Virus record (IMG/VR): IMGVR_UViG_3300005298_000010 | Location: 6,775 to 70,774 of that record | DNA length: 64,000 bases | Origin: a virus | Taxonomy: Duplodnaviria > Caudoviricetes | Reading direction: 5' to 3' (one strand) | Part shown: in pieces, positions 11,073 to 54,664 of the stretch | Numbering within the stretch: position 1 is the stretch's first letter | How the letters are laid out: each line of letters opens with the position of its first letter | Notes under the pieces: generated by a model | Seen by the model: the letters and a program-made list of their open reading frames with translations, nothing else | The model's database searches: none | Told to the model about the DNA's origin: nothing | Position numbers and translations under genes: made by a program

Positions 11073-11082
11073 AAATACGCTT

Positions 11083-11787
11083 ATGATAAGCTTTTACCGC
11101 AAAATTATTACCGAGTGTAAGATCCTCAAGAAACACGAACTTGTTGAATTATGGAAACGGTGGAAGCAGCACAAAGACGAAGATGCTTATCACCAGCTCA
11201 TTTTCTCCCAGCTTCGCCTCGCCTACCAAATTGCCGACCGTCTGAAACGTTTTTATCCACATGAATGCGAGGATGATGTCAAGTCGGAAGCGACACTAGC
11301 CGTTATAAATGCCCTCAAATGGTGGGACCCCAAAAAGGGGAACCTATCAACCATTACAACCATTGTCTGCTATCAAAGGATCTGTAAGTACCTTTTGGTT
11401 AACCGTTACATCATTCGCATTCCCTATCATGTCTTGCGGCAGATTAACAAACTAGAAAAGGTCGTCCATCCGGAGGTTCAGGAATTAATTAAAAACCTAT
11501 CTTATCTTAATGAACATACTCAAGTTCGCTCAGACTCTTCTCCTCTTGATAACCTAATAACTGCCGAAAGTAACGAACGTCTAAGGGCGGCTTTGGATAA
11601 GTTACCTCCTCTCAAAAAAGAGATTATCCAGCAATATTACGGCTTTTTTGGTGCACCAAAAACTGTCCAAACATTAGCTAAAAAATATAATATGAGTGAG
11701 TCGGACATGCTTAAGCTGCTTTCCGACTGTCATGAAGAATTGAAAAGGAATATAGTCAACGAGCTCCAGAAGGACGAGCAACAGTAA
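11083..11787 (+). CDS. Second RNA polymerase sigma70-family factor
   Basis: AYHQLIFSQLRLAYQIA (region 2.1), WWDPKKGNLST, YIIRIPYH, region 4 LDKLPPLKKEIIQQYYG...TLAKKYNMS. Confidence 0.85.
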   Translation: MISFYRKIITECKILKKHELVELWKRWKQHKDEDAYHQLIFSQLRLAYQIADRLKRFYPHECEDDVKSEATLAVINALKWWDPKKGNLSTITTIVCYQRICKYLLVNRYIIRIPYHVLRQINKLEKVVHPEVQELIKNLSYLNEHTQVRSDSSPLDNLITAESNERLRAALDKLPPLKKEIIQQYYGFFGAPKTVQTLAKKYNMSESDMLKLLSDCHEELKRNIVNELQKDEQQ

Positions 11788-11880
11788 AATCCCGGTGTAA
11801 TTGTTGTTCGTTGTATGACGATAGTCCTGTGGACTTTCGCAGAAAGCTAGGTCATCATTAGTGGACGGAGGGAAGAAGTC

Positions 11881-12096
11881 GTGTTAAGATTAAAACGTTA
11901 TCGTGGTCAAGGTGTTCACATTGGGGAGAATATCTATATCAAGATCATTAGAATCGATAAGGATGGTTGTGTAGAATTGGGTATTAGTGCCCCAGAGGAT
12001 GTCAAGATCCTTAGGACTGAATTAAAATATCGGATGAAGGCGAACGGGAAAATATCAGAAACCACAGTCACCACACCTGCTAAGGAGGATAAATAG
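11881..12096 (+). CDS. csrA: Carbon storage regulator CsrA/RsmA homologue
   Basis: MLRLKRYRGQGVHIGENIYIKII...VELGISAPEDVKILRTEL follows the CsrA pattern (MLxLxR..G..I.IG...V.LGI.AP..V.I.R.E); GTG start after GGAGGG. Confidence 0.9.
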   Translation: MLRLKRYRGQGVHIGENIYIKIIRIDKDGCVELGISAPEDVKILRTELKYRMKANGKISETTVTTPAKEDK

Positions 12097-13973: not shown

Positions 13974-14045
13974 AGATTAAAATTTGATGTAGAAATGTCC
14001 TAAATCATTTCGATATGAACATCGACTTTAGTAGCCCTTGGAGGA

Positions 14046-20854: not shown

Positions 20855-21149
20855 AAAACAGCAATTCCCACGTTATAAGATAGCCATCCATCGCAAGAAA
20901 TCATCTTTATTTTACGGTCTCGTCAGACAAGAAGAAGACAGAAAAGTGAAAATTATCATCGATAAAGACCTTCCATTCGATCTGGCGGTCTACACCCTCG
21001 CGGAGGAAGTTGCCCATCTAAAAAGAGGAATCAAAAAAACCTTCGAAAAGAATCACGATGACAGATGGGGGCAACTTTATGCGTTTTATCTAAGAGAGTT
21101 TACCAACTTTCTGAAGTTATACGAAGATCAAAAACACCGACATAGCTAA
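20802..21149 (+). CDS. Small SprT/M48-like metalloprotease-fold protein with EEVAH in place of HExxH
   Basis: YTLAEEVAH followed by NHDDRWGQLY resembles HE.xH...H...F/W zincins. Confidence 0.5.
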   Translation: MSWTSDCRKKWQALIRHIKQQFPRYKIAIHRKKSSLFYGLVRQEEDRKVKIIIDKDLPFDLAVYTLAEEVAHLKRGIKKTFEKNHDDRWGQLYAFYLREFTNFLKLYEDQKHRHS

Positions 21150-21171
21150 AAGAAAAAGCCATCCGTGGCTT
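21146..21171 (-). terminator. Putative intrinsic terminator
   Basis: aagcc-atccgt-ggctt hairpin followed on the minus strand by TTTCTTTT, just downstream of 21204..21554. Confidence 0.5.
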
Positions 21172-24227: not shown

Positions 24228-25442
24228 TTATTTCTCCTTAATAAACCTTGCCACTCGGATATACTCCGGAACGGCGACATCCCCACTGTCCCGAATCAGC
24301 CAACAGTAAAGCCTGCTGTGCTTTGGCGGCTTCGGCCAGGATGTTTCGCCGTCCGTGACCATTATTATGTGCCTAAATCGCTCGGAGGCATCTAAACGGT
24401 CCACAATTGGACCAAGATCGGTGCCTCCACCGACGGGTACTTCCTTGACCCGCTCGGGATAGAAGTTTCTCTCCTCCGTGATAATTTCCACATCGCAGTA
24501 GTAAACAACCAGAGCGCCCGGGAAGGCCTCAGCTAAGCCATAAAGGGCTCTAGCTAAGTCTTCCAGAAACGGCTGAACGCTCTGGGAGACGTCAAATACT
24601 ACTGCGATGGGCTCTTGGTTAGTACGCAGGTGGGCCGGTATAACAATACTGGAGCTATACCGGCGGTTAGGCCTCGCAAAAGATTGGCGTCGGAACTCAC
24701 TCTGTGCACCGAGCTGTGCGTTTACAAACTGCAGCAGCTCGTCAAATGGATTCCGGAGAGGGCTTCCCACTTCCATGGCTCGGCGGACATCAGCCAGGCC
24801 CGACAGCCCTGCCCGCTGAGCCGTCTGAAGGGCCTGCTCGACTGCTTCTCGCAACGCAGCCTCGGTAACAAGCCCTCGGTCGAGCTCAATTCCATCGACC
24901 TCGATAGATTCTTCGGAGGTGTCACCCTCCCCTTCTTCACCCTCTCCGAATAGATCTACGGCCACTTCGTGGCCTTCTTCCAGTTGCTCCATATGCTCAC
25001 GGAGGAGCTTGTAATAGGCCTCCACGGACAGGTCAGGAGGAAATCCGAAACTGGCCGCGGAAGCGAAATTTTTCGGAACTTGTATGAAATGCTCAAGCAC
25101 CTCCGTGCGTGCAATCTCCGACGCTAAGTTCCATAACGCCCTATCATTATGGGATGCAAGTAATTGCCCAGCACGGTCCCGGTGCTTGAGAATGTAAGCC
25201 AAAACCGCATGGGCTACGTAAATGGGTTTTAAATCATCATCAATGTGCTTATTGATGATGATTTTGTTGTGATGTGTGATAATTAAAGGCTGGGATGCAT
25301 TTGCTTGGGTATCGTCCTCACCCCTTTCCTCTATCGGAATCAGGAAAATGAACCTGCCGCCGAATTTCAGAATGTCAAACACCTGTTTCCGCAATCCGAT
25401 CATGGTTATCCTCCTTTCAAAAAGGAAAGTCAAAGAACCCAC
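24228..25442 (-). CDS. DUF2201-like metallopeptidase-fold + VWA domain protein
   Basis: RRQSFARPNRR, VFDVSQS (MIDAS), GGGTD, MVTDG; likely start MIGLRK after AAGGAGG; paired with the AAA ATPase. Confidence 0.82.
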   Translation of the reverse strand: MGSLTFLFERRITMIGLRKQVFDILKFGGRFIFLIPIEERGEDDTQANASQPLIITHHNKIIINKHIDDDLKPIYVAHAVLAYILKHRDRAGQLLASHNDRALWNLASEIARTEVLEHFIQVPKNFASAASFGFPPDLSVEAYYKLLREHMEQLEEGHEVAVDLFGEGEEGEGDTSEESIEVDGIELDRGLVTEAALREAVEQALQTAQRAGLSGLADVRRAMEVGSPLRNPFDELLQFVNAQLGAQSEFRRQSFARPNRRYSSSIVIPAHLRTNQEPIAVVFDVSQSVQPFLEDLARALYGLAEAFPGALVVYYCDVEIITEERNFYPERVKEVPVGGGTDLGPIVDRLDASERFRHIIMVTDGETSWPKPPKHSRLYCWLIRDSGDVAVPEYIRVARFIKEK

Positions 25443-25469: not shown

Positions 25470-26534
25470 CTATGTCACCTGTTGGAGAAGCTGGAAGACT
25501 TCCGGAGGAAATAGACCCCGGTGCTTCGATCTCGCGGCGGTCTTGAGAAGGCACAGGATGTATTCCTGATACCTTCCCTCCTTGAGATAATCATTCAAAT
25601 AATCGACCGCCCGTTTCCAAATATCCTTTCCGACCTCCTCCGGGAGAGTCTCGATATAGCTGAAGACCTCGTTGAACAACACAAATACCAACGAGCCCTC
25701 TCTCCGGCGGTCGTTAAACGGGTACCTCAAGCCCTCGTTGAGGTACTCCTCGATGAATTCCTCCACTCGCGGCAATTCCATCGAGCGGAGGAACGACGAC
25801 AACTCAGCACTGAAGGCCTGTCCGCAGCAGGCCGTGCTGACGTACAGCAAGTCGGACAGGCTCTTCCGTCCCAGAGCCGCCATTGCTGCCCATCCGCGGA
25901 TGGTATAATCACATCCGCGAAGGGTCGCATATGCGAACTGCTCGTCCTGAGCAGGCTCCAAGAGCACGCTAGGACGGCTCTGGAGAAATATCCACATTAA
26001 ATTCCTTGCCCACCCAATATTTTCCTCCCAATTGGGCGGTAGCTTAATGAAGTTATTACTGAACGCACCCTCCGAGAGGTACTTCAAGTACCCCTGGATG
26101 TTTGGCGTCATCGGGACCCACGCCATTCTTGTCCTCAACATGCGGCTCATAGCATGGGTCCCCAAATCCTCCTGATTGCACGTTCCCACAATATACGTGC
26201 TGTTTGGGATCGCGAAGATCCCTCTTTCGCGATCCACCAATTGGCACAGGAGTGCCTGCACCTTGTCGGGAGGCACCCTGTTCACCTCATCCAGTAATAA
26301 CATCGTGTTTGGCTCTCTCAACCGGCTGATAAACTCCGGCTCGGCAAATTTCATCTTCCCCCCCTCGATATACGGATACCCGATAAAATCTACGGGTTCC
26401 ACCCCGAGGAGAGGCAATTTGATCAGCCGGAGATTTAAGAATTCCGCAAGCGCCCCAATGGTCGCAGTCTTGCCGATACCGTTGGGGCCTACAAGAACGA
26501 CCGGGATACCTGACTGTACTAACACCTCAAACAT
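25470..26534 (-). CDS. MoxR-like AAA+ ATPase
   Basis: GPNGIGKT, DFIGYP, LLLDEVNR, VGTCN, LRTRM. Confidence 0.88.
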   Translation of the reverse strand: MFEVLVQSGIPVVLVGPNGIGKTATIGALAEFLNLRLIKLPLLGVEPVDFIGYPYIEGGKMKFAEPEFISRLREPNTMLLLDEVNRVPPDKVQALLCQLVDRERGIFAIPNSTYIVGTCNQEDLGTHAMSRMLRTRMAWVPMTPNIQGYLKYLSEGAFSNNFIKLPPNWEENIGWARNLMWIFLQSRPSVLLEPAQDEQFAYATLRGCDYTIRGWAAMAALGRKSLSDLLYVSTACCGQAFSAELSSFLRSMELPRVEEFIEEYLNEGLRYPFNDRRREGSLVFVLFNEVFSYIETLPEEVGKDIWKRAVDYLNDYLKEGRYQEYILCLLKTAARSKHRGLFPPEVFQLLQQVT

Positions 26535-27585: not shown

Positions 27586-28630
27586 CCTGTACCTCCCTTA
27601 TTCCGAATTCGAAGACCCTTGCATATGCCTCGGCTGATCTGAACCAGACAAGCTCGTGTTTAGCAAGCTTATGGTACCGCTGTCGAGGTGGATCAAATAG
27701 ACTGTCCACCTCCTCACTAACTACCTGACGAAACGTTCTCCGAGTAATGTCGAGGAACACCAGCTGAATCCGCGTTGCGAAATCGGCAACGCTACGTCCG
27801 GCCATTACCGCCTGGAAACTACCCCAGGCGGAATAACCGCTATGGTTACGAATGTAGTAGTTATACGCATCCGTGACTTCCCCATGATGAATCAGCGTGA
27901 TGACAACTCGTGGGGATAGTGCCCTCATAGAAGCTCGGTAAGAAACTGCTTTGTTGGCCTGCATACAGTGACTTGTAAAAGGGATCCAATCTACGGTAAG
28001 TGAGCCTTCGCGAGCGTGGACGATAATCAAACCGATAAACTCCACACCCGAAAAAATGGGCATCACCTCGTAGTTTAACAACATCGGCTTTTCGACTCCC
28101 GCTGCAAATAGCCATTCACTGCGATCCCACAGATAGATCGCTGTGGGATTGTACCAGCACAGGTAAGGACCTTGCAGCGGAAAGTCGTAAGCAAATAAAT
28201 CCAGCCGCGGGCTTTGGTCATTAACGACATAGTCCTGGGGGATGAGATTCTCAAAGCAGTAGACCCGCCCGCTGAACGAATTTGCCAGCGTCAAGAGGTA
28301 AAAACAATGGTCTTTAGTGGTTCGGACACCGACAAAACCATCTGGTAGCTCCCACCAGATGGCTCCAGAAAGGAGAGAGCTATTGATGTCTTTGCTCCCC
28401 TTATCGATCCACACCTCTGGCGGTAAGGGACGGATGAGACATCCAATCGAATCCGTCCCTTTTTTACCAAAGGTGTTGCAATTGTACTGCAAGCTACCGT
28501 CATTCAAATCTAAACAATTGACGGTATATTCTCGAATGAACGGTTGCTGCCATACAAGTTTCCTGTTGACGAGACAGCAAAATTTAACTGTGGACATTTT
28601 TACCTTCATCTCCGTGTCCTCCTTTATCAA
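27563..28630 (-). CDS. Hypothetical beta-rich protein
   Basis: 355 aa; likely start MKVK after AAAGGAGG. Confidence 0.65.
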   Translation of the reverse strand: MIKEDTEMKVKMSTVKFCCLVNRKLVWQQPFIREYTVNCLDLNDGSLQYNCNTFGKKGTDSIGCLIRPLPPEVWIDKGSKDINSSLLSGAIWWELPDGFVGVRTTKDHCFYLLTLANSFSGRVYCFENLIPQDYVVNDQSPRLDLFAYDFPLQGPYLCWYNPTAIYLWDRSEWLFAAGVEKPMLLNYEVMPIFSGVEFIGLIIVHAREGSLTVDWIPFTSHCMQANKAVSYRASMRALSPRVVITLIHHGEVTDAYNYYIRNHSGYSAWGSFQAVMAGRSVADFATRIQLVFLDITRRTFRQVVSEEVDSLFDPPRQRYHKLAKHELVWFRSAEAYARVFEFGIREVQDENGEAV

Positions 28631-28697
28631 AGGGGCCTACTTTGTGCCTTCTACCATAGCTAAAAAAGATTGGTCTAAGGCCTTTCTTACTCCATGT

Positions 28698-28726
28698 ATT
28701 AATGCGTGATCCACTACCCTTTTTCA
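28698..28726 (-). promoter_or_regulatory. Putative phage promoter TGAAA-N16-GCATTAA
   Basis: Minus strand TGAAAAAG-ggtagtggatcac-GCATTAAT, upstream of the leftward operon starting near 28630. Confidence 0.65.
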
Positions 28727-28729
28727 GGG

Positions 28730-29400
28730 CACAAAGCGGCTTCCCTTGGGATAACCGACAAGGATGTCCTTAGGAAATGCTTTTAGGAAAGGTAAGGATT
28801 TAAGAGCTACTATTAGCTCTAGCTATCTCAGATACCTATCACAGCATAAGGATAGGTATTAAGACAGCTATAACAAACATCACCAAGAAGGTTAACAACC
28901 TTCTGCCAAAAGGGGGGTATTGATCGGCTTTTTGGTGATGTTTGTAAGCATACCTAAGCTCCTTGTGATTATCCTGCGAAAATTAGGAGGTTGGTCTTAG
29001 GCTTGGTTTGGTTTTACGACCTTAGCGGATCTTATGACACGGGATTTTTAGGATGAAGAGTTATCCCAAATGGACCAGGACGTAGCCGCTTTGTGGTGGA
29101 TCAACTACCACCCCGTTGCCTGGAAAACCTATCTCAACCCGGAAAAGGAAGAGCTGAGATAGGAACCCCGATTTCGACCCACTAGAGGTCAACCTCCATC
29201 CAAGGGAACCGAGGGTTACGTCCTCCATGAGTAACTCCTCTAACCGGTTTACCTTAGCCTAAGCACGGTAAAGGAAACCGGAAAAGGACCGCTTCCCAAC
29301 CTCCACGGTGGATGGATTGAGTTATTTTAGGAAGCTAGTTATCTAAGGGTAAGAAAGGGTCGCATGGTCCCTCATGGGCTGAAGAACCATGCGACCCCAG
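28730..29400. other. ORF-free, hairpin-dense non-coding tract (structured RNA or origin candidate)
   Basis: No track ORF; at least six inverted repeats of 7-14 bp, e.g. 28873-28886/28932-28945. Confidence 0.6.
29350..29397 (-). terminator. Intrinsic terminator of 29424..30425
   Basis: 12-bp stem gggtcgcatggt/accatgcgaccc, then TTTCTT on the minus strand. Confidence 0.7.
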
Positions 29401-29423
29401 TATAACAGATAGGCAAAGGGATG

Positions 29424-30425
29424 TCAAGGGTTTTGGGGATTTTTAAGGATCCGGGCGAAAGTGTAGTAGGAGATATTGGTAGAAGGATCCTGGTAGTGGA
29501 ACCAGGCTAGGGTAGGAGTGGTAGAAATTTGGATGTCTTGAGGGGAAAGATGGAAAAGAGGATCATAAGTAAAGTTAACGGAAAAGGAATTAAGGGTGCC
29601 GCGGAGAGGGAGGGAAATTTGGTGATATCGCCCGGAAAGGTGAATAAAGGGATCGGGATCAGAGGAGGGAGTGAAGCGGGTGATTTCAAAGGGCCAAGGA
29701 TTAAGCTGCCCAAGGGGAGATTGGGCAGTAGGAGAGGGGGGATCAAGGAGGGTAGAACGGGGGAGAGGAAGACTGGGAGTGTAACTAAAGCAAGGGATAA
29801 GAAAATGATGATCCTGGTAGCGGATATAAAGGGAGCGGTGATAGCGGGTATGGTGAAAGGCAAGATGGACCGAAGAGGCCTTAGGATCTGAAGAGGCAAG
29901 AAGGGCAAGGGGGATAAAATGGTGCCAAGGGTGCCCAAAGGTGCGGCGAAGCAAGGATTCAGGAGGGGCTTGCCGCAGCGGAATGACAATCAGGCGACCC
30001 ATATAGTAGTTATCCTTGAGAAGAAGTAAGGCGTTTCCCCAGAGAGGATGGTCTTTGACGATAAGGTGAATAATGTCCCCGGGAGCCTGAATCAGATGAT
30101 CAAAATGCAGCCGAAGAAGCGAAGCTTTAAGTTGGAAGGCGTTGCTGGGAGGGTCAAAGGGGCGAGGGGAAAGGGAATGCAGACAGACTGCGGATAAGGA
30201 GCGACCAGATTGATAGTTCTGAAGGATCGCAAGCCCCTCATCGGAAGAAAAAACTAGAGGGGCCTTAAGATCGGAAAAAGAGATATCATCCTGAAGGGCA
30301 ATATCCATATAGGCCTCATGGGCATCAAAGGCCGTAAGCCGCCAGGTTTGACGCTTTTGGTAAAGATAAACATGCTGAGAAAGGGCCGAGGCCATCTGAA
30401 GGGCAGTCTGAAGGGGGATCCTCAT
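29424..30425 (-). CDS. Hypothetical protein, paralogue of 30757..31542; strongly pyrimidine-biased coding strand
   Basis: Start moved to ATG 30425 (MRIPLQ) after GGGAGG; shares LL..H...L...H..W..AL.L...LIV.PL...L.RR.F with the next gene. Confidence 0.7.
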   Translation of the reverse strand: MRIPLQTALQMASALSQHVYLYQKRQTWRLTAFDAHEAYMDIALQDDISFSDLKAPLVFSSDEGLAILQNYQSGRSLSAVCLHSLSPRPFDPPSNAFQLKASLLRLHFDHLIQAPGDIIHLIVKDHPLWGNALLLLKDNYYMGRLIVIPLRQAPPESLLRRTFGHPWHHFIPLALLASSDPKASSVHLAFHHTRYHRSLYIRYQDHHFLIPCFSYTPSLPLPRSTLLDPPSPTAQSPLGQLNPWPFEITRFTPSSDPDPFIHLSGRYHQISLPLRGTLNSFSVNFTYDPLFHLSPQDIQISTTPTLAWFHYQDPSTNISYYTFARILKNPQNP

Positions 30426-30451
30426 GGTAAAACCTCCCATAGCTAAAGGTT

Positions 30452-30480
30452 TGAAAGGTCCGGCGAATTCCTGCATTAAT
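30452..30480 (+). promoter_or_regulatory. Plus-strand copy of TGAAA-N16-GCATTAA
   Basis: TGAAAGGT-ccggcgaattcct-GCATTAAT. Confidence 0.5.
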
Positions 30481-30756
30481 TTATGATAAAGGAGTGTTGG
30501 TCATGGAGGAAGGGTAAAAGAGTTTCTTTTGCTTTTTAGCAAAGGAGAAGGAAAAGGAGAAGGAAATGGTGGTTATATTACTGCTTCTCGTGGTCCTCGC
30601 AAGTTGAGGACCAATAAAAAAAACATGGTTGCGACCCTATCTGGTCGCAACCAGCTAAAAAAATGGGAGCGTTATGCTTTGGAGTCGGGGCCAGCTAGGC
30701 CCCGACTCCAAATTCTCTTGAAGCACAGTCCTGCTGCCTTCTTTAGCTATGTCGCC

Positions 30757-31542
30757 TTAATGTGCGGGAAAGACCGCATAATAGTGAATCCCTGCCTCAT
30801 AGTGATGGTACCAGAGATTCTCTGCTTTTATGGCGACTTCTGGCTTTTCTGCAAATGGCCAAAGGTCAGTTTCAGAAGGGAGGGTGAGTTTAAATTTTGG
30901 TGGATGTAAAATCCTTTTGGGAGGGATCCGCTTTGGTTTACCCCTCAACACAAAATACGAATCGGCATGCTTAATATAAAGCTCATCGCCATTGACCGTA
31001 AAGCCCAAATCCGTGGGTCCGTCAGGAAGCTCTGACCTTAAAAGCGTCAGAGCAATATAGGGCGCAATATGGGATGTGAACACCCTCCGCTTCAGATATG
31101 AAAACCCCTCCAGAAACTGTAGCGGAAGGACGATAAGGATTGTGTGCTTGGAGCCCTCACCAATAAGCACGAGGGCATCCTTCCAGACTTTGTGTCTGAT
31201 CGTTATAATGTGGGTCACTTCCGCACTACAGTTGGCAAGAAGTTCCAGGTGTGCCTTAAGGAGAGGCACTTGGAACTGATAAAGCTCAGGGGGCTGAAAA
31301 ACAGCCGATTCGTGGTTTGAGGGGCTTATCGAGAAACTGCCGGACCCAAGCAAAGGAAAAAGCTCAGGTGCAAACTCGGGATAGGGCTCAGATCCAAAAT
31401 GCTTAGGATCAATCGGCATATCGAATTGGACATGCCGATCCCGGATCCCTCTAACTCTGGTAAGTCCCTTCTCGTCACGATATATATGAAGGGTGCAATT
31501 CATCCAAAAGCCTAGGGTGCCGATGATCGAATTCATAGGCAT
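30757..31542 (-). CDS. Hypothetical protein, paralogue of 29424..30425
   Basis: 261 aa with AAGGAGG RBS; visual alignment as above. Confidence 0.7.
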   Translation of the reverse strand: MPMNSIIGTLGFWMNCTLHIYRDEKGLTRVRGIRDRHVQFDMPIDPKHFGSEPYPEFAPELFPLLGSGSFSISPSNHESAVFQPPELYQFQVPLLKAHLELLANCSAEVTHIITIRHKVWKDALVLIGEGSKHTILIVLPLQFLEGFSYLKRRVFTSHIAPYIALTLLRSELPDGPTDLGFTVNGDELYIKHADSYFVLRGKPKRIPPKRILHPPKFKLTLPSETDLWPFAEKPEVAIKAENLWYHHYEAGIHYYAVFPAH

Positions 31543-31630
31543 TCCTCCTTACAAAGAAAGGTTCCTTTTCGCCTCTCACCTGGAAAGCCTGCTTCTTAAG
31601 GAGTAAAATTGGGAGGGAAGCGACATAGTT

Positions 31631-31668
31631 AAAAAGATCCTGCTTTGGAGAGTTTTCTCCAAGCAGGA
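31631..31668 (-). terminator. Intrinsic terminator
   Basis: tcctgctttggaga-gttt-tctccaagcagga hairpin, then TCTTTTT on the minus strand, after 31697..31918. Confidence 0.75.
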
Positions 31669-31696
31669 CTCGACGGTCGGGTGTCAGTTCAACGCT

Positions 31697-31918
31697 TTAC
31701 TCTTCCTTGACCATGTTGAAAAGTCGGGCCAGCCTTTGGCAGGCCCTGAAGAACTCAATCAGCTGCACTGTTGCCTCCCCCCTCATTTCTGGGGGCATCC
31801 GGTCCAAGAGTTCTTGGACCTCGTCCTGGACCGCTTTTGGACACTCTCCTGCGATCTCCTCAAGACGCCTGATTTCTTGTTTCAATTCTTCAAACAAGAA
31901 AAGGTTCACGCTGTTCAT
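31697..31918 (-). CDS. Small helical protein
   Basis: 73 aa with AAGGAGG RBS, between a promoter and a terminator. Confidence 0.75.
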   Translation of the reverse strand: MNSVNLFLFEELKQEIRRLEEIAGECPKAVQDEVQELLDRMPPEMRGEATVQLIEFFRACQRLARLFNMVKEE

Positions 31919-32010
31919 GGTCTTCCTCCTTTTTTGTTTGTAGTTCAGACAAAACCTTACTTACCTATCCAAACCTTACCTCAACAAGGCAAACCTCTGC
32001 TACCCGACCG

Positions 32011-32178
32011 TCACTTTTTAATGCAAAAATTTCGATAAATTTTCACGGTTTGTAGGGGGGCTTTTTAGCATTAAAAACCTTCATTTTCACATAGCTAAAA
32101 GAAGCGACCTGGTTCCCAGGACCCCTTCCTTTCAAGTTCTTTGGAATCCTTAGGGTGAAAGCTTTACTCTTCCTCTGA
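32011..32178 (-). repeat. Cassette copy A (gene tail + hairpin + promoter)
   Basis: 32011-32050 and 32109-32178 closely match 32795-32835 and 32863-32933. Confidence 0.85.
32017..32045 (-). promoter_or_regulatory. Putative phage promoter TGAAAATT-N13-GCATTAAA
   Basis: Minus strand TGAAAATT-tatcgaaattttt-GCATTAAA, upstream of 31918. Confidence 0.7.
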
Positions 32179-32440
32179 CAGAAAATAGCCTTGAAAACTC
32201 CACTTTAAGGGAACCGATAAGATGCTTGTTCTGATTAACATTTGTCCTATAGCTGATATAGGGTGAAAAGTATGCAATTGGAGGAGGTATCTTGGGATAG
32301 AAAATCTGAAGTAGTAGTGGGGTTGGGACCCGCCAGACTCGTGATTTAAAGCATATCCCTCTGTGGGTATGAATATCAGTGCCCTGCGGTAAGAATCCCA
32401 TCTTCTTCAAAGAAGAGATTGAAAGGAAGCGATATAGCTA

Positions 32441-32480
32441 AAAGAGATCGGCTTCCGCCGCCAGGCGGGAGGCGGGAGCC
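32441..32480 (-). terminator. Intrinsic terminator
   Basis: GC-rich stem ggcttccgcc/ggcgggagcc, then gatctCTTTT on the minus strand, after 32503..32694. Confidence 0.7.
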
Positions 32481-32502
32481 ACGCGAGCCTTGACCGAGTC
32501 GA

Positions 32503-32694
32503 CTAATTCAGCTCGGTCAATGCTCTTCTTATCTCTCTCGCTGCGTCGATCATCGACTCTAACATTGAAAGAATCTTGGCTTTTGTCCGCGGATCGAGAG
32601 CGGCTGCATATTGCAGCCACTCTCGAATCTGGCTGGGTACGTACGCTTCGACTTCCTTCTCGAGCTCTTCGATTTTCAGCAAAACTTCGTCCAT
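32503..32694 (-). CDS. Small helical protein, possible paralogue of 31697..31918
   Basis: 63 aa with AAAGGAG RBS; same cassette context. Confidence 0.7.
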   Translation of the reverse strand: MDEVLLKIEELEKEVEAYVPSQIREWLQYAAALDPRTKAKILSMLESMIDAAREIRRALTELN

Positions 32695-32794
32695 ATTTCG
32701 ACTCCTTTGTAGGAAGAGACTTGAGAAACTGTTCCCACCAACCCACCCACCACTGGCCTCCCGCCCTCCTAACCAACGACCTATTCCTCCTTCC

Positions 32795-32933
32795 TCACTT
32801 TTTAATGCAAAAATCCTAATAAATTTTCACGGTTTTTAAGGGGTCCTGAAAGAGCCAGCAATCTGGTTTCCAGGACCCCTTCCTTTCACGTTTTTTGGAA
32901 TCCTTCGGATGGCTGCTTTTACTCTTCTTCTGA
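32795..32933 (-). repeat. Cassette copy B
   Basis: See copy A; includes the 10-bp stem aggggtcctg (32839-32848)/caggacccct (32871-32880). Confidence 0.85.
32801..32829 (-). promoter_or_regulatory. Putative phage promoter TGAAAATT-N13-GCATTAAA
   Basis: Minus strand TGAAAATT-tattaggattttt-GCATTAAA, upstream of 32694. Confidence 0.7.
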
Positions 32934-33701
32934 GATCGTTTTTATAGGTCGAATTAGTAATCGACCTTTGTATGTCACAATGTAATCCTCAGATATCCCT
33001 AGCTCTGCTCCTTGCAAGGCCCAAATGATTTTGGCTTTTAGGGCCTCGAGGGCTTCCTGTTCCTTCTTTATGTTTTTCTGATGCTCTAAATAATCCCGGA
33101 TATGCATAATGGTTTCCTCCTTAAGTTCGACCTTTGTTTTGACTGTCGGAAGCCTTCTTAGGAGAGGAGTTGGGGCGATATCTTCTTCTCGAATATCTCC
33201 CGCAAGCATCCTCTCCCATCGTTTTCTTGCCATTTCGATTATCTTTTCAACACTTTGGGACGGTTCGATGGTGTGGAACTCAAACCCCCTTGCTCCAACA
33301 AGGGCAGCCAAATATCCTCGCTTTGCCCTTGTCAGATTTATGTAAATTTCCACCTCAAGCTGTTTATAGTCCGGAATGGGCGTCCAAAGCTTGTACATGG
33401 GCGATGTGATGCCCGAGGAAGAAATCACAATCGGACACCCTTCCGCATCCATATCACAGACCCCCTCTATCTGCCTCTGCTCGTCCCTTATCACCACATC
33501 AGGCTTTACTTCTAGCTTATGTGTCGTTGTGTACCATTCTCGTATAAGTGGTTTCAGGACTTCATGGATCTTTAGATTCCATGAAACCTCAGAAATCCCG
33601 AGATGGCGTTCAAGATAAAGCTCCAGTGGTTTTTTGTAAGGAACAGCACCTACCAAAACACAAATGTCACTTGGCGTTAACATCTCTAGGCCCTCCGTCA
33701 T
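32919..33701 (-). CDS. YqaJ/lambda-exonuclease-like protein with degenerate active site
   Basis: LTPSDICVLVGAVPYKKPLELYLE and YLAALVGARGFEFHTIE...RWERML match the YqaJ layout; the ExK motif reads VISS. Confidence 0.75.
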   Translation of the reverse strand: MTEGLEMLTPSDICVLVGAVPYKKPLELYLERHLGISEVSWNLKIHEVLKPLIREWYTTTHKLEVKPDVVIRDEQRQIEGVCDMDAEGCPIVISSSGITSPMYKLWTPIPDYKQLEVEIYINLTRAKRGYLAALVGARGFEFHTIEPSQSVEKIIEMARKRWERMLAGDIREEDIAPTPLLRRLPTVKTKVELKEETIMHIRDYLEHQKNIKKEQEALEALKAKIIWALQGAELGISEDYIVTYKGRLLIRPIKTISEEE

Positions 33702-33738
33702 ATCTAAAAAATTTCGGACATAACCCTTTTCCTCATAG

Positions 33739-33767
33739 TTTAATGCTGGGGTTTCTGAGAATTTTCA
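33739..33767 (-). promoter_or_regulatory. Putative phage promoter TGAAAATT-N13-GCATTAAA
   Basis: Minus strand TGAAAATT-ctcagaaacccca-GCATTAAA, upstream of the YqaJ-like gene. Confidence 0.7.
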
Positions 33768-34091
33768 GTGAAGGTATAATAAATCAGATCAATGTGGAAC
33801 GGATCGGCTGTGTCGCTCTTGTTATAACCTTTGACTTACTGCGGTTGCAATGGGCATTTTCGGTTTTAAGATTCAGATAAGATGCTAGCATGATAAGCTT
33901 CTGGTCTTATTGGCCTATGAAGGTCCCGAGCCTTTAGATTCGATATCTTTACGGTGGATTCTATAACTTTGTCTGATGGTTTCGTTTATCGATTTGAATT
34001 GCCCCTGTTAAGACTAAAATTCTGACGAGCAGCGAGGCTATCCTGACCTAATTTTTAATGGTAATCATGATCATCATCGAGGTGAATAAAT

Positions 34092-34802
34092 ATGGGTTTT
34101 GTTGATTCGAGGAGGCATCTTCGGTTTCGTCTAGGTACAAAGGAAGAAGAGGATGCCTATCTTGCGACCTATTCGCAGATCGGACCTGAGGATTTCGATG
34201 CGGAGAAGGTTTGGGTCGTTTTTGGTGGAAGAAGTGCATTGGTAAGGAAAGAGGATCTGCTGGAGGCTTTATTCGGGAAAAATTCTTCTTCAGACAAACC
34301 AAATCTCGAACGGGTAGAGAATATCGTAAATATGGGATCTAGGTCGGAGTCTAATTGGTCAGCTCCTATCAATGCGGATAAATCCAATAACACCGGAAAA
34401 CAGGAAACCACGTCTACAAAAGAGGATGTTATGCATCAGCTGCATGTCCCCACGGAATCTTTAGCCTTAATCATGCCGGAGGATGGACTGGTAAGGACAT
34501 GCTACTTTCATGAGATAATTTTGGAAGGAAACAGGCTTACTTTAGTGTGGGATACACGGGCTGTCGGTTTTCATAAGACTTATCCTTTGCCCGGGAAAAG
34601 ATTTTTGGTTCGTTGTTTATCCAGAGGATTAATCGATGTTCCGGTTGTGTCCATAGGTTATCTTTTTACGCATGGAGTTTACGAATATTACCTTCTGGTT
34701 TTACTTCCAAGAACACAAGACACCAACATAACTAGAACATCGGAAACTTCGGATAACTCTCAGCCCCAAGACTCTGAAGGTGTAAAAGCCGAGGCAATAT
34801 GA
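34092..34802 (+). CDS. Hypothetical protein
   Basis: 236 aa, GAGGTG RBS, ATGA overlap with the portal gene. Confidence 0.7.
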   Translation: MGFVDSRRHLRFRLGTKEEEDAYLATYSQIGPEDFDAEKVWVVFGGRSALVRKEDLLEALFGKNSSSDKPNLERVENIVNMGSRSESNWSAPINADKSNNTGKQETTSTKEDVMHQLHVPTESLALIMPEDGLVRTCYFHEIILEGNRLTLVWDTRAVGFHKTYPLPGKRFLVRCLSRGLIDVPVVSIGYLFTHGVYEYYLLVLLPRTQDTNITRTSETSDNSQPQDSEGVKAEAI

Positions 34803-43314: not shown

Positions 43315-43773
43315 ATGCCTTATTGGGAACAGCAACCACAACAACCACAGCAACCAACGCAACCGGGCAATAGAAGTCAAATTGTTCCTTTAATTCGCAA
43401 AGTCAAACAGCTTCTCAGTCTTCCTCCGGATCAGCTTGAATCGGGAAGGCGATTATGGAGAGAAGTGGCTAAAAACCCACAAATAGCTTCTCAATTAGGA
43501 CCTGCACATAAAGATAAGATTATGGCAGCCGTCCTAAAGGATTACGTTCTACCACAGGTCAAGGATCCTAACCGAGCTAAGGAATTCGTCTCAAGGTTGC
43601 AGGCTGCTGTCTCCCAGTTTGCTAATCAAGCACCTCAATCTCAGCAGCCTCCCCCTCCACAGCCTTCCTCTCCACCCCCTCCTCCTCAAAATGTTAAGCA
43701 AGGTTCTTGGCTATGTGACCTTTTTAAAAATCCTCCTGGGGCTCTTGACAAGTCGTGGTGGGATATGCTATAA
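43315..43773 (+). CDS. Pro/Gln-rich hypothetical protein
   Basis: 152 aa, last gene of the structural run. Confidence 0.65.
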   Translation: MPYWEQQPQQPQQPTQPGNRSQIVPLIRKVKQLLSLPPDQLESGRRLWREVAKNPQIASQLGPAHKDKIMAAVLKDYVLPQVKDPNRAKEFVSRLQAAVSQFANQAPQSQQPPPPQPSSPPPPPQNVKQGSWLCDLFKNPPGALDKSWWDML

Positions 43774-43774
43774 T
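43745..43774 (+). promoter_or_regulatory. Consensus sigma70/sigmaA promoter
   Basis: TTGACA (43745-43750), 18-nt spacer ending TGC (extended -10), TATAAT (43769-43774); GGAGGG RBS and ATG at 43798 follow. Confidence 0.85.
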
Positions 43775-48254: not shown

Positions 48255-49295
48255 ATGCTTAATGATCGCCTGTATCAAAGGCTTCTCGCTGTCTTCCACG
48301 ACGTTAAGGTCAGCAATATGGGGGAGCGTTTGGTTTGGGAGTTAGTTCCTGGTCCTTTTGGCTCTCGTACTAGGATTGAGATCAAGCATTGGGGCGAGAC
48401 CTATAGTGTAAACTGTCCGTTTTGTCACGAGTTTGTTGGGAGGCCGGATCGTCACCATCGACTTTATATCAGCCATGCCTGGTACGGTGAGATTCGCGGC
48501 AGGCGACTCTGGTGGCTTGTTAAATGTCACAACGAAGATTGTTTTAGACGTAATCCGGATAATATTGGTCGTCTTCGGACCATGCTTTTCTATTCTCGAC
48601 CGGAAGTGGCTCCGATTCCGGAACCGACAGACTCTACCCCTGAACCTCTTAAGCCCGTCCGGCTTCCTCGTCATATTCCGACAGCGGCTCTCCCTGATGA
48701 CCATCCGGCTGTCAGGTATCTTTTAAATAGGGGTATTGACAAAGAGCTTCAGGTTCGCTATAATATAGGTTATTGCTACGAGCAGGATCCGGACTATCCG
48801 ACCGCTCACAACAGGATATTGTTTCCAATTTACATGAATCATGTCTTGGTTTCTTGGCAAGCTCGCAGTCTCGGGAACGCCTTACAGAAGTACTATAACT
48901 GTCCTGGAACGAAAGTTTCTAATATCCTCTATGGCTGGGATTTAATCTCCGACGATAGCTATTGCATCTTAGTCGAAGGAATCTTTGACGCGATCCGTGT
49001 AGGTCCTCCAGCCTTAGCTTTGTTCGGCAAATCCATCTCTGACGCTCAAGCGAGACTTTTAAGACGATTTAAGGTTGTATTTTATCTCCCTGACAGTGAT
49101 GTAACCAAAGAAGAAAAACAACACTATTTATCGATTCTGAGAAGATACAATATCCGCTGTTGTCCTATAAACTGTCGATCTGTCAAAGATCCTGGCGAAA
49201 TGACTAAGGAACAGATTAGGATTTTGCACGAGGTCGCAAAGGAGCGTGCTAATGGTTCCTATCAAGAAGTTGCACTTGAACTCTGTGGATCCTGA
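48255..49295 (+). CDS. dnaG: DNA primase (Zn finger + TOPRIM)
   Basis: CPFCHE...H...CHNEDC, YLLNRGI, RILFPI, KYYN, LVEGIFDAI, KDPGE. Confidence 0.9.
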   Translation: MLNDRLYQRLLAVFHDVKVSNMGERLVWELVPGPFGSRTRIEIKHWGETYSVNCPFCHEFVGRPDRHHRLYISHAWYGEIRGRRLWWLVKCHNEDCFRRNPDNIGRLRTMLFYSRPEVAPIPEPTDSTPEPLKPVRLPRHIPTAALPDDHPAVRYLLNRGIDKELQVRYNIGYCYEQDPDYPTAHNRILFPIYMNHVLVSWQARSLGNALQKYYNCPGTKVSNILYGWDLISDDSYCILVEGIFDAIRVGPPALALFGKSISDAQARLLRRFKVVFYLPDSDVTKEEKQHYLSILRRYNIRCCPINCRSVKDPGEMTKEQIRILHEVAKERANGSYQEVALELCGS

Positions 49296-53184: not shown

Positions 53185-54299
53185 CCTTTGTCCTTAGGGC
53201 GTTAGTTATGTCTAGCGATATTGGTGCTTCTGTTGCAAGGAAAGTCAAAATTCCTTTTTTGATGAGGATTTTGCTGAATTTGGAAGCCTTACCTTTGGGT
53301 AGAGTTATTCAGATTATGGGTCCGCAGGCTTCCCTAAAAAGTACATTCGCTGCCGAGATCGTCAGGTGGCATCTTTGTGAGGGTGGGAGGGCGGCTTTTT
53401 TTGAAACAGAAGGTAAGCCTGCGGCGTTTGTTTATATGTGTTTGATCGAGACTTTTGGTAAGGAGGTTGTTAGGATTTGTCGAGTTAAGAGGATGGAAAA
53501 ATGGATGCAGGAGATTTCTAAACAGATTCGAAAAGGAGAGGAGCTTTTGGAACAAGGGGTGAATCTGCCGCCTATGGTTTTTGTGGTCGATAGTGTGCTG
53601 GGCTGTAACAGCATGCAGACCATCTCGGATGTAGATGAGCGAGGATACCCCAGTGAAAGATTCGCCTCAGAATCGAGACGCATTACGGATTTTCTACGTT
53701 CATATTCCAGCCGGATTGCGGATCTTCCATTAACCCTAATTATGGTTAACCATGTCAAGCTCCGCCCGACTGGATTTACGATTCAAAAGGCGACTGTTGG
53801 TGGGGTAGATCTTCGTTATCGTGCGACCTTTGAACTGGAATTGAAGAGGGAAAAGTCGACCAGCTATCTAGGTGGTCCGTGTGAAAATTTACTGACCATT
53901 AGCGTAGAAAAGAATTCTTTCGGACCGGATGTTACGTCTATTTCCGTACCGGTCATTTTCGACAATAGGGATCGTAAGATTTATTTCGATTGGTACTCGC
54001 CGCTTACGCGTTGGCTATGTGATCTTCGAACCGATTATGTTAAGCCAAAGCCCGCACCTTCTGTGTTAGAACAAATCCGAGGGCTTTTTGGGATATCGGT
54101 TCGCTCTGGCGGTCCGAAAGGTAAGCTTTATTACTGCGAATCTATCGGGATTGAGAAGGAGAATGCCTTACCGGCCCATGAATTTGGTAAGTTTTTGGAG
54201 GAGAATTGTCAGGATAAATTGGCCGTTCTTTCGGAGATTATTGGGATTCGGACTGTGGATGATATCGTTAGTGAAGAGTCTATTGATTTCGAGCATTAA
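53181..54299 (+). CDS. recA: RecA/UvsX-like recombinase
   Basis: GRVIQIMGPQASLKST, AAFFETEG, FVVDSV, IMVNHV, GGVDLRYRAT, VEKNSFGP follow the RecA motif order. Confidence 0.88.
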   Translation: MTFVLRALVMSSDIGASVARKVKIPFLMRILLNLEALPLGRVIQIMGPQASLKSTFAAEIVRWHLCEGGRAAFFETEGKPAAFVYMCLIETFGKEVVRICRVKRMEKWMQEISKQIRKGEELLEQGVNLPPMVFVVDSVLGCNSMQTISDVDERGYPSERFASESRRITDFLRSYSSRIADLPLTLIMVNHVKLRPTGFTIQKATVGGVDLRYRATFELELKREKSTSYLGGPCENLLTISVEKNSFGPDVTSISVPVIFDNRDRKIYFDWYSPLTRWLCDLRTDYVKPKPAPSVLEQIRGLFGISVRSGGPKGKLYYCESIGIEKENALPAHEFGKFLEENCQDKLAVLSEIIGIRTVDDIVSEESIDFEH

Positions 54300-54319
54300 T
54301 ATTTGATGAAAGAACAGGT

Positions 54320-54664
54320 TTGGCTATTTTTTTAGATATGGCTTCGGAACAAGAGAAAAAGAAGTATTGGCTTCCATATGCGGAAGTCAATTCGGTTCAG
54401 TTGGAAGATGAAGCTGTCATCTGGGACTGGCTTCAAGGTAAGACAGAGCAGCTTGAAAGCATAGTCTTTAAGGATGGCAGCTTCATTCCCACCATCTTTG
54501 AGGTAAAAGGAAATCGGTATATTCTCTTACCTGTGCCGCATTTATGGCTTACAGTTCTGTCGCCGCTTTCGGCGGTATATCTAAAGGTCCGCTCGTGGTA
54601 CTTTGTGTTGGTCTCATTGGAGGTTTTTGCTTGTGAAGAGGATAAGTCATCGTCTGACAGTTAA
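54320..54664 (+). CDS. Hypothetical protein
   Basis: 114 aa; ATG at 54338 is a possible start. Confidence 0.6.
   Translation: MAIFLDMASEQEKKKYWLPYAEVNSVQLEDEAVIWDWLQGKTEQLESIVFKDGSFIPTIFEVKGNRYILLPVPHLWLTVLSPLSAVYLKVRSWYFVLVSLEVFACEEDKSSSDS

What the first reader, a model, noticed from the sequence alone, without database searches (positions are those of the whole stretch)
28698..33767. Novel bipartite promoter motif TGAAA-N16-GCATTAA with invariant spacing
Seen: five exact copies at 28698-28726 (-), 30452-30480 (+), 32017-32045 (-), 32801-32829 (-) and 33739-33767 (-), all intergenic; the four minus copies lie upstream of RBS-bearing genes. A one-mismatch copy (TGAAG) at 54272-54300 precedes 54320. 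A 12-base pattern is expected about 0.008 times in 128 kb of uniform sequence; two copies share a duplication, but three others have unrelated spacers. Inference: the -35/-10 pair for one phage sigma (or a host alternative sigma).
Basis: partly seen in the sequence, partly recalled or inferred. Interest (0 to 1): 0.75.

Follow-up and report, generated by a model that had tools for sequence, protein, structure and literature searches.

The report
Phage-specific promoter motif, six copies
An uncultivated hot-spring phage carries six copies of a two-part DNA signal (TGAAA, 16 bases, GCATTAA) placed like gene start switches, probably read by one of the phage's own two sigma factors; this is a familiar phage strategy with a new sequence.

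Summary
Five exact TGAAA-N16-GCATTAA sites and one one-mismatch site exist, with coordinates off by one base. It is the only 5+7 dyad on the 70.8-kb phage contig with five copies. A profile search finds no weaker members.

After correcting for motif discovery, and counting the duplicated sites 3 and 4 as one, copy number alone is only about 0.1 significant. Placement carries the case:
- All five exact sites lie outside real genes.
- They point at downstream genes that have Shine-Dalgarno sites, or at a structured 235-nt unit.
- Two sit directly after terminator-like hairpins.
- In the duplicated pair, changes fall in the spacer and none in the boxes.
- An invariant TG lies 5-6 nt downstream, where a start site is expected.

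The contig has perfect TTGACA/TATAAT promoters elsewhere, so this is a separate class. It encodes two 234-aa sigma-70-family proteins and no RNA polymerase.

Best reading: a promoter class for host core polymerase with a non-housekeeping sigma, probably a phage one (0.55). Which sigma is unresolved. There are no RNA data, no close relatives and no known host.

The closest analogue is Salmonella phage 7-11, whose sigma reads GTAAtg-N16-aCTA. Verdict: new member of a known kind, modest interest.

The parts
28693..28726 (-). Site 1: TGAAA-N16-GCATTAA plus the downstream invariant TG. It lies about 83 nt upstream of the ATG at 28609, which has an AAGGAGG ribosome site. That is the first gene of a six-gene minus-strand operon running 28609 to 23400.
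   Evidence: gene map; operon content (MoxR-like AAA ATPase, DUF2201)
30452..30485 (+). Site 2: the only plus-strand exact copy. It faces a 235-nt ORF-poor, strongly structured stretch (30484-30725) that ends at a hairpin followed by a T-rich tail. Candidate small RNA.
   Evidence: plus-strand terminator-like hairpin 30678-30712; fold z = -7.3
32012..32045 (-). Site 3: follows a terminator-like hairpin (32108-32120) and lies about 95 nt upstream of a 73-aa gene (31697-31918) that has an AAGGAGG ribosome site.
32796..32829 (-). Site 4: paralogue of site 3, follows a long hairpin (32840-32880), upstream of a small gene (ATG 32694 or TTG 32776, ending 32503/32438). Of the six differences in the 49-nt repeat between sites 3 and 4, four lie in the spacer centre, two lie upstream of TGAAA, and none lies in either box.
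33734..33767 (-). Site 5: at the divergent control region (33684-34091), about 50 nt upstream of the RecE-like exonuclease gene (ATG 33683 with a GGAGGG ribosome site, ending 32919).
   Evidence: phrog_434, E = 2.9e-18; database copy is 254 aa, so the start is 33683
54272..54305 (+). Site 6: one mismatch (TGAAG). It overlaps the last codons and the stop of the UvsX-like gene 53505-54299 and lies upstream of a 108-aa ORF (54338-54664). It shares with site 5 the same 31-nt leader length up to a T-run followed by TAGATATG.
   Evidence: phrog_97; 27.9 bits
3921..4625 (+). Phage sigma-70-family gene 1 (234 aa), with regions 3 and 4. Its weak best matches are to SigF, FliA and RpoS types.
   Evidence: (Sigma70_r3 37.2 bits, r4 25.4 bits)
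11083..11787 (+). Phage sigma-70-family gene 2 (234 aa). Its region 2 resembles primary, RpoH and RpoS sigmas, and it has region 4. A CsrA homologue follows at 11881-12096.
   Evidence: TIGR02937 61.4 bits, cut-off 42.9; phrog_351, E = 1.5e-19
43745..43774 (+). Contrast class: perfect housekeeping-type promoter TTGACA-18-TATAAT with an upstream TG, ahead of the replication operon. A second perfect one is at 48736-48764(+) and an 11/12 match with TG at 29399-29427(-).

Best explanation
The six sites are one class of transcription promoters on a large uncultivated hot-spring phage. TGAAA acts as the -35-type box. GCATTAA acts as an extended -10-type box 16 nt downstream. Transcription is predicted to start at or just after the invariant TG, 6-7 nt past GCATTAA.

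The promoters are read by the host's core RNA polymerase carrying a sigma other than the housekeeping one, most probably one of the two sigma-70-family proteins the phage encodes. They drive separate, insulated units:
- a six-gene operon with a MoxR-type ATPase;
- two small genes;
- a RecE-like exonuclease;
- a probable small RNA;
- a gene next to the UvsX-like recombinase.

Shown: the sites, their spacing, their placement, the sigma genes, and the separate housekeeping-type promoters. Inferred: that transcription starts there, and which sigma reads them.
For: 1. The motif is real and sharply bounded. There are five exact copies and one one-mismatch copy, all with N16. It is the only 5+7 dyad with 5 copies on the contig, and 0 of 40 Markov simulations reached 5. 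The profile search gives the six sites 24-30 bits and the next best 6.6 bits. At two mismatches or N15/N17 only background remains.

2. Placement. All five exact sites lie outside real genes on a contig that is about 90% or more coding. Each points at a downstream gene with a Shine-Dalgarno site 20-100 nt away, or at a structured unit ending in a terminator-like hairpin. Sites 3 and 4 directly follow hairpins, so a new promoter is needed there.

3. In the duplicated pair, 4 of the 6 changes lie in the spacer and none in the boxes.

4. TG is invariant 5-6 nt after GCATTAA and is followed by a purine, which is where a start site is expected.

5. It is not the housekeeping class. No site passes the sigma-70 scan, whereas perfect TTGACA-17/18-TATAAT promoters stand at 43745, 48736 and 29427.

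6. The contig encodes two sigma-70-family proteins, both with region 4, which is the part that reads a -35 box. It encodes no single- or multi-subunit RNA polymerase.

7. Precedent: phage 7-11 sigma gp47 reads eight promoters with the consensus GTAAtg-N16-aCTA, and transcription starts 6-9 nt downstream (PMC8948821).
Against: - There is no transcript evidence of any kind. No RNA run holds this DNA.
- There is no comparative support. The region has no relatives. The three related contigs that carry the sigma-2 homologue are short and lack the motif.
- With sites 3 and 4 counted once, some dyad with four copies arises in about 1 in 8 random contigs.
- All exact sites sit in one 5-kb stretch, so common descent of junction modules could explain part of the identity.
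- Neither sigma gene is preceded by the motif, and nothing links the motif to either sigma.
- The record is only about 41% complete, so an RNA polymerase or another regulator may lie in the missing part.
- The complete lack of degenerate copies is unusual for a promoter family.
Confidence: 0.55

Rival explanations
1. The sites are promoters as described, but a host alternative sigma (group 3, heat-shock-like or flagellar-like) reads them rather than a phage sigma. The phage would borrow a host stress or motility regulon signal.
For: - The -35 box matches 5 of 6 bases of the sigma-32 -35 consensus TTGAAA, and the -10 box shares CAT..T with CCCCATWT (PMC6687850).
- The overall span from -35 to the end of -10 (23 nt) equals that of sigma-28 promoters, TAAAGTTT-N11-GCCGATAA (PMC2859248).
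- No link to a phage sigma has been shown.
Against: - The sequence matches are partial. The C-tract is absent in 5 of 6 sites, and only 4 of 8 bases match the sigma-28 -10 box.
- The phage carries two sigma genes of its own that need cognate promoters.
- The host is unknown, so no host regulon could be scanned.
Confidence: 0.15
2. The two boxes are binding sites for a phage or host DNA-binding regulator (activator, repressor, or a MotA-like sigma appropriator), not the core promoter elements themselves.
For: - All 12 bases are exactly invariant with no degenerate members. That fits a sequence-specific regulator at least as well as a sigma.
- Sites 1, 5 and 6 have a second conserved element (a T-run followed by TAG(C/A)TATG) 31-34 nt downstream, which could be the true initiation signal.
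Against: - The boxes are unrelated to each other and not palindromic, which is unlike a dimeric regulator site.
- The spacing and strand bias are promoter-like.
- Sites 2, 3 and 4 have no second element downstream.
- No housekeeping-type -10 (TAnnnT) stands at a usable distance in sites 1, 3 and 4.
Confidence: 0.12
3. The sites are weak housekeeping-sigma promoters (nTGAAA, 17 nt, CATTAA) that look uniform only because they descend from one duplicated junction module.
For: - nTGAAA matches 4-5 of the 6 bases of TTGACA, and CATTAA keeps the key A at the second position.
- Sites 3 and 4 are a proven duplication.
- Sites 1, 5 and 6 share a leader layout.
Against: - CATTAA matches only 3 of 6 bases and lacks the final T, so no site passes the sigma-70 scan.
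- The G before CAT and the TTAA are invariant although the spacers are unrelated.
- The same contig uses perfect consensus promoters where it wants housekeeping transcription.
Confidence: 0.08
4. The sites are a chance or purely historical repeat with no present function.
For: Discovery-corrected copy number is weak once the duplicated pair is collapsed. Some dyad reached 4 copies in 5 of 40 simulated contigs. There are no functional data.
Against: - No dyad reached five copies in 40 simulations.
- All sites fall in the few per cent of non-coding DNA and are correctly oriented.
- The boxes are spared while the spacer changed in the duplicated pair.
- There is an extra invariant TG.
Confidence: 0.07

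Closest known systems
Late promoters of Salmonella phage 7-11, read by the phage sigma gp47 (GTAAtg-N16-aCTA; PMC8948821)
   Same: - A bipartite consensus with a fixed 16-nt spacer.
- A handful of near-identical copies (eight there, six here) in front of phage gene units.
- The phage sigma has region 4.
- Host-type sigma-70 promoters serve other genes of the same phage.
- Starts lie 6-9 nt downstream there, and here an invariant TG lies 5-6 nt downstream.
   Different: - The box sequences are unrelated.
- The 7-11 promoters were mapped by primer extension and in vitro transcription, whereas nothing is mapped here.
- This phage has two sigma genes and a thermophilic, unknown host.
Bacillus phage SPO1 sigma cascade (gp28 for middle genes, gp33/34 for late genes; PMC13401047)
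   Same: A large phage uses host core polymerase. Host sigma-A-type promoters drive the first genes and two phage sigma factors drive later classes.
   Different: - No homology or timing data exist here.
- Only one non-housekeeping bipartite class was found on the 41% of the genome available.
- The consensus sequences differ (SPO1 consensus known to me from memory only).
Bacterial group-3 sigma promoters: sigma-28 TAAAGTTT-N11-GCCGATAA (PMC2859248) and sigma-32 TTGAAA / CCCCATWT (PMC6687850)
   Same: - A short A-rich -35 box ((T/G)AAA or TGAAA).
- A long G/C-started -10 box ending in TAA or AT.
- The same overall span (23 nt for sigma-28).
- High sequence stringency.
- The phage sigmas score best, though weakly, against FliA/SigF (sigma 1) and RpoH/RpoS/RpoD (sigma 2) models.
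   Different: - Only 4 of 8 (sigma-28) or about 4 of 8 (sigma-32) -10 positions match.
- The C-tract of sigma-32 promoters is missing.
- The downstream genes are phage recombination genes and genes of unknown function, not flagellar or heat-shock genes.
phiEco32 gp36 and T4 gp55 single-element promoters (tAATGTAtA; TATAAATA)
   Same: A phage-specific, nearly invariant promoter element read by a phage sigma on host core polymerase.
   Different: Those promoters lack a -35 box because their sigmas lack region 4. Here there are two boxes, and both phage sigmas have region 4.

Membership tests
Sigma-70-family bipartite promoter (any sigma) | Two conserved blocks at a fixed spacing compatible with -35/-10 geometry | tested here: met
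   TGAAA and GCATTAA are separated by exactly 16 nt in all six sites. N15 or N17 variants are at background level.
Sigma-70-family bipartite promoter (any sigma) | Located upstream of, and co-oriented with, a transcription unit and outside coding sequence | tested here: met
   The five exact sites lie outside real genes. They sit 20-100 nt upstream of starts with ribosome sites, or of a structured 235-nt unit. Two follow terminator-like hairpins. Site 6 overlaps a stop codon.
Sigma-70-family bipartite promoter (any sigma) | Transcription starts 5-9 nt downstream of the -10 block | not testable with these tools
   No RNA run holds this DNA. The only indirect sign is an invariant TG followed by a purine 5-7 nt downstream.
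Sigma-70-family bipartite promoter (any sigma) | Activity depends on a particular sigma factor | not testable with these tools
   Two candidate phage sigma genes were found. No assay or co-variation data are available.
Housekeeping (sigma-70 / sigma-A) promoter | TTGACA-N16-18-TATAAT-like hexamers with A at position 2 and T at position 6 of the -10 | tested here: not met
   None of the six sites is reported by the consensus scan. The best reading, CATTAA, matches 3 of 6 bases and ends in A. Perfect consensus promoters exist elsewhere on the contig.
Sigma-28 (FliA) promoter | TAAA(GTTT)-N11/15-GCCGATAA | tested here: not met
   Aligned by eye to the consensus quoted in PMC2859248: GAAA against TAAA, and 4 of 8 -10 positions match. 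Only the overall span is the same.
Sigma-32 (RpoH) promoter | TTGAAA at -35 and CCCCATWT at -10 | tested here: inconclusive
   The -35 box matches 5 of 6 bases. The -10 box shares CAT and a following T, but the C-tract is present only in site 5. The sigma-32 spacing was taken from memory and not checked.
Sigma-54 promoter | GG and GC doublets 10 nt apart (TGGCAC-N5-TTGCW) | tested here: not met
   TTGCAT is present in sites 3 and 4, but there is no GG 12 nt upstream of the GC in any site (alignment).
Phage RNA polymerase promoter (T7-like or multi-subunit phiKZ/AR9-like) | The phage encodes its own RNA polymerase, and its promoter is one contiguous conserved block | tested here: inconclusive
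   There are no matches to PF00940, PF00623 or PF00562 on the contig, and the motif is bipartite with free spacers. However, the record is only about 41% complete, and divergent polymerases could escape Pfam.

The most novel reading that the evidence does not exclude
The phage runs a three-tier programme on host core polymerase with two sigma factors of its own:
- perfect housekeeping-type promoters for replication genes and a long non-coding RNA;
- the nearly invariant TGAAA-N16-GCATTAA class for an array of insulated promoter-gene-terminator cassettes, including an antisense small RNA;
- a third signal, a T-run followed by TAGCTATG, for the other sigma or for RNA processing.

The two phage signals would be stacked in some leaders, giving dual-phase expression. 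This would yield two new, highly stringent, thermostable sigma/promoter pairs.
Probability: 0.2. Interest if true: 0.55.

Novelty: new member of a known kind. Interest (0 to 1): 0.35.

Why it matters
If confirmed, the motif would give the first handle on gene regulation in a deep-branching, uncultivated hot-spring phage lineage. Most proteins of this phage that were scanned against Pfam or PHROGs matched no family. It would define a new sigma/promoter specificity, possibly usable as an orthogonal, heat-tolerant expression part. It would also let other contigs of this phage group be annotated into temporal classes by sequence alone. It does not change how phage transcription is understood, because phage sigmas with their own bipartite promoters are well established.

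Tried and rejected
- **Relatives of the motif region:**
  - The RecE-like protein found nothing in viral contigs and only itself among 5.8 billion proteins.
  - An extended DNA pattern in viral contigs gave 35 single hits at about chance level (my rough estimate, not computed by a tool). None is related by tblastn.
  - No look-alike windows exist in earlier scan notes.
- **Relatives through the sigma gene:**
  - Three proteins are 53-56% identical to sigma 2.
  - Three short metagenome contigs (L042-L044) carry the conserved GT2-sigma-CsrA block, but neither motif.
  - IMG/VR holds only relatives at 26-30% identity.
  - No cultured relatives were found.
- **RNA evidence:** no RNA holder is listed. 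Three DNA runs from hot-spring metagenomes hold the stretch. Read laying was not used because contigs cannot show transcript starts.
- **Host identification:**
  - Genome-contig scans with the sigma and CsrA alignments found nothing.
  - The protein atlas for the polymerase gave only viral clusters.
  - There are no tRNAs.
  - The test 'is the motif enriched in the host genome' could therefore not be run.
- **Rfam:** no family matched in the window or, at E up to 1, in 28000-34500.
- **Rejected readings:**
  - Sigma-54: no GG at the right distance.
  - An extended -10 built on the downstream TG: no TAnnnT follows it.
  - Start codons inside TTTAGCTATG: most open only tiny ORFs.
  - Attenuator hairpins in the leaders: none is convincing.
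- **Literature:** a full-text search for GCATTAA with 'promoter' and 'sigma' returned 59 papers. None of the 10 listed concerned such a promoter.


Full report
**What the record is**

The window is bases 6775-70774 of a single 70,774-bp virus record (IMG/VR, linear). CheckV rates it about 41% complete. The DNA occurs in hot-spring metagenomes.

It is a tailed phage with:
- a large terminase;
- a UDG-PolA fusion;
- helicases;
- an ATP-dependent ligase with a LigD-type phosphoesterase domain;
- an SbcCD-like pair;
- a RecE-like exonuclease;
- a UvsX-like recombinase.

Most other proteins scanned match no Pfam or PHROG family. No cultured phage is close.

**The observation**

TGAAA-N16-GCATTAA occurs exactly five times and once with one mismatch:

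| Site | Coordinates | Strand | Match |
|---|---|---|---|
| 1 | 28699-28726 | - | exact |
| 2 | 30452-30479 | + | exact |
| 3 | 32018-32045 | - | exact |
| 4 | 32802-32829 | - | exact |
| 5 | 33740-33767 | - | exact |
| 6 | 54272-54299 | + | one mismatch |

Shuffles of the window give 0.01 exact and 0.56 one-mismatch matches. The 6.7 kb of the record outside the window adds no copy.

Because the pattern was read off the data, I also asked the unbiased question. Among all 5-N(10-21)-7 dyads on the contig, with tandem repeats masked, this is the only one with five copies. In 40 second-order Markov simulations of the contig, no dyad reached five copies. Some dyad reached four copies in 5 of the 40.

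Sites 3 and 4 are a duplication: 49 nt at 88% identity plus a 63-nt upstream block. There are therefore only four independent exact sites. Copy number alone is not decisive after discovery correction (roughly 0.1).

The family is sharply bounded:
- With two mismatches or N15/N17 only background remains.
- A sequence profile built from the six sites scores them at 24-30 bits and the next best place in the window at 6.6 bits.

**What makes it convincing is placement**

The contig is about 90% or more coding, yet all five exact sites lie outside real genes:
- Site 2 overlaps only an N-terminal ORF extension upstream of the Shine-Dalgarno-preceded start at 30425.
- Site 3 overlaps only a spurious antisense ORF.

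Each minus-strand site points at a minus-strand gene with a strong ribosome site:
- Site 1 is about 83 nt from the ATG at 28609, the first of six genes running to 23400. These include a MoxR-type AAA ATPase and a DUF2201 protein.
- Site 3 is about 95 nt from a 73-aa gene.
- Site 4 precedes a 63- or 112-aa gene.
- Site 5 is about 50 nt from the RecE-like exonuclease. Its start is 33683, as in the 254-aa database copy.

Sites 3 and 4 sit directly after hairpins that end the preceding units, so a fresh promoter is needed there.

Site 2, the only plus-strand exact copy, faces a 235-nt ORF-poor stretch. That stretch folds far better than shuffles (z = -7.3) and ends at a hairpin followed by a T-rich tail. 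This is a plausible small-RNA unit.

Site 6 overlaps the stop codon of the UvsX-like gene. Alone it could be chance. However, it shares with site 5 the same leader layout up to a T-run followed by TAGATATG, exactly 31 nt downstream.

**Fine structure**

The alignment of the six sites shows these invariant positions:
- TGAA, plus A in five of six;
- GCATTAA;

If the A of GCATTAA is the -11 base, the purine after TG is +1.

In the duplicated pair, four of the six differences lie in the spacer centre, two lie upstream, and none lies in a box. That is the pattern expected under selection on the boxes.

**It is not the housekeeping class**

None of the sites passes the sigma-70 consensus scan. The best hexamer reading (nTGAAA, 17 nt, CATTAA) matches 3 of 6 bases in the -10 and lacks the final T.

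The same contig has perfect housekeeping-type promoters:
- TTGACA-17-TATAAT at 48736;
- TTGACA-17-TATACT with TG at 29427(-).

So the host's main sigma evidently uses the canonical consensus, and the phage uses that consensus where it wants it.

**Candidate readers**

The contig encodes two 234-aa sigma-70-family proteins:
- The gene at 11083-11787 has regions 2 and 4. It scores 61.4 bits on TIGR02937 (cut-off 42.9), matches SigA structures in PDB down to 1e-8, and matches phrog_351 at 1.5e-19.
- The gene at 3921-4625 has regions 3 and 4, with weak best matches to SigF, FliA and RpoS types.

Both proteins have region 4, the part that reads a -35 box.

No T7-like or multi-subunit RNA polymerase domain is found. 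The missing 59% of the genome limits that negative result.

Nothing assigns the motif to either sigma:
- The motif does not precede either sigma gene.
- Sigma 2's relatives (53-56% identical) lie on 2.8-5.1-kb metagenome contigs. These conserve the GT2-sigma-CsrA block but contain no copy of the motif.

**Comparison with known systems**

The closest analogue is Salmonella phage 7-11. Its sigma gp47, which has region 4, reads eight late promoters with the bipartite consensus GTAAtg-N16-aCTA. Starts lie 6-9 nt downstream, and host sigma-70 promoters serve the early genes (PMC8948821).

phiEco32 gp36 reads a single element, tAATGTAtA (same paper). SPO1 uses two phage sigmas in a cascade (PMC13401047).

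Among bacterial classes:
- The -35 box matches 5 of 6 bases of the sigma-32 TTGAAA, and the -10 box shares CAT..T with CCCCATWT (PMC6687850). The C-tract is missing.
- The overall span equals that of sigma-28 promoters, TAAAGTTT-N11-GCCGATAA (PMC2859248). Only half of the -10 positions match.
- Sigma-54 geometry is absent.

The motif is therefore a new sequence specificity within a well-known architecture.

**Verdict**

| Reading | Confidence |
|---|---|
| Promoter read by a phage sigma | 0.55 |
| Promoter read by a host alternative sigma | 0.15 |
| Weak housekeeping-sigma promoter | 0.08 |
| Sites for a separate DNA-binding regulator | 0.12 |
| No present function | 0.07 |

A promoter class of some kind is the best-supported reading (the first three rows together, about 0.78).

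The finding is a sound, modestly interesting annotation. It is a new member of a known kind, with interest about 0.35 rather than 0.75.

Noticed in passing
window 21141-21150(-), 28655-28664(-), 30438-30447(-), 30742-30751(+), 32090-32099(-); one-mismatch copies at 31624, 32433, 33699 (all -) and 54331(+); a related TTTCGATATG near 14013(+): A second recurrent motif, TTTAGCTATG, usually preceded by more T and often followed by TCGC(TTCC). There are 13 matches at up to 1 mismatch against 4 expected. It sits just after terminator-like hairpins, or 13-46 nt before start codons. In sites 1, 5 and 6 it lies 31-34 nt downstream of GCATTAA. It could be the other sigma's -10-only promoter or an RNA processing site. 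It is absent from the related contigs L042-L044.
   Followed up: partly
window 29399-29427(-) and 28740-29400: A near-perfect housekeeping-type promoter (TTGACA-17-TATACT with an upstream TG) fires into the 650-nt ORF-free, repeat-rich tract that ends just before site 1. This suggests a long early non-coding RNA. There is no Rfam match.
   Followed up: partly
window 30484-30725(+): The unit downstream of site 2 folds very stably (-96.5 kcal/mol, z = -7.3). It contains a 13-codon hydrophobic mini-ORF with a ribosome site. It runs antisense through the terminator of the convergent 261-aa gene. Candidate small RNA or micro-peptide.
   Followed up: partly
window 32011-32178 versus 32795-32933: The duplicated junction module includes the last codons and stop of the RecE-like gene, its hairpin and the promoter. 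In the site-3 copy this gene tail matches no listed ORF (40 aa or more). It looks as if a whole 'gene end-terminator-promoter' junction was copied or recombined between cassettes.
   Followed up: partly
window 9036-12096(+); L042, L043, L044: The block GT2 glycosyltransferase - sigma 2 - CsrA homologue is syntenic in three hot-spring metagenome contigs. Amino-acid identity is 46-49% for GT2, 53-56% for sigma 2 and 65-84% for CsrA. A phage-borne CsrA next to a sigma factor suggests combined transcriptional and translational takeover.
   Followed up: partly
window 32068-32074(+): An extra GCATTAA lies on the opposite strand 23 nt from site 3, forming a 15-nt inverted repeat with the site 3 box. 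It has no TGAAA partner. Its meaning is unknown.
   Followed up: no
window 25470-26534(-) and 24228-25403(-): A MoxR-type AAA ATPase (AAA_5) is followed by a DUF2201_N 'putative metallopeptidase' protein, after two unknown 350-aa proteins. This is the operon driven by site 1.
   Followed up: no
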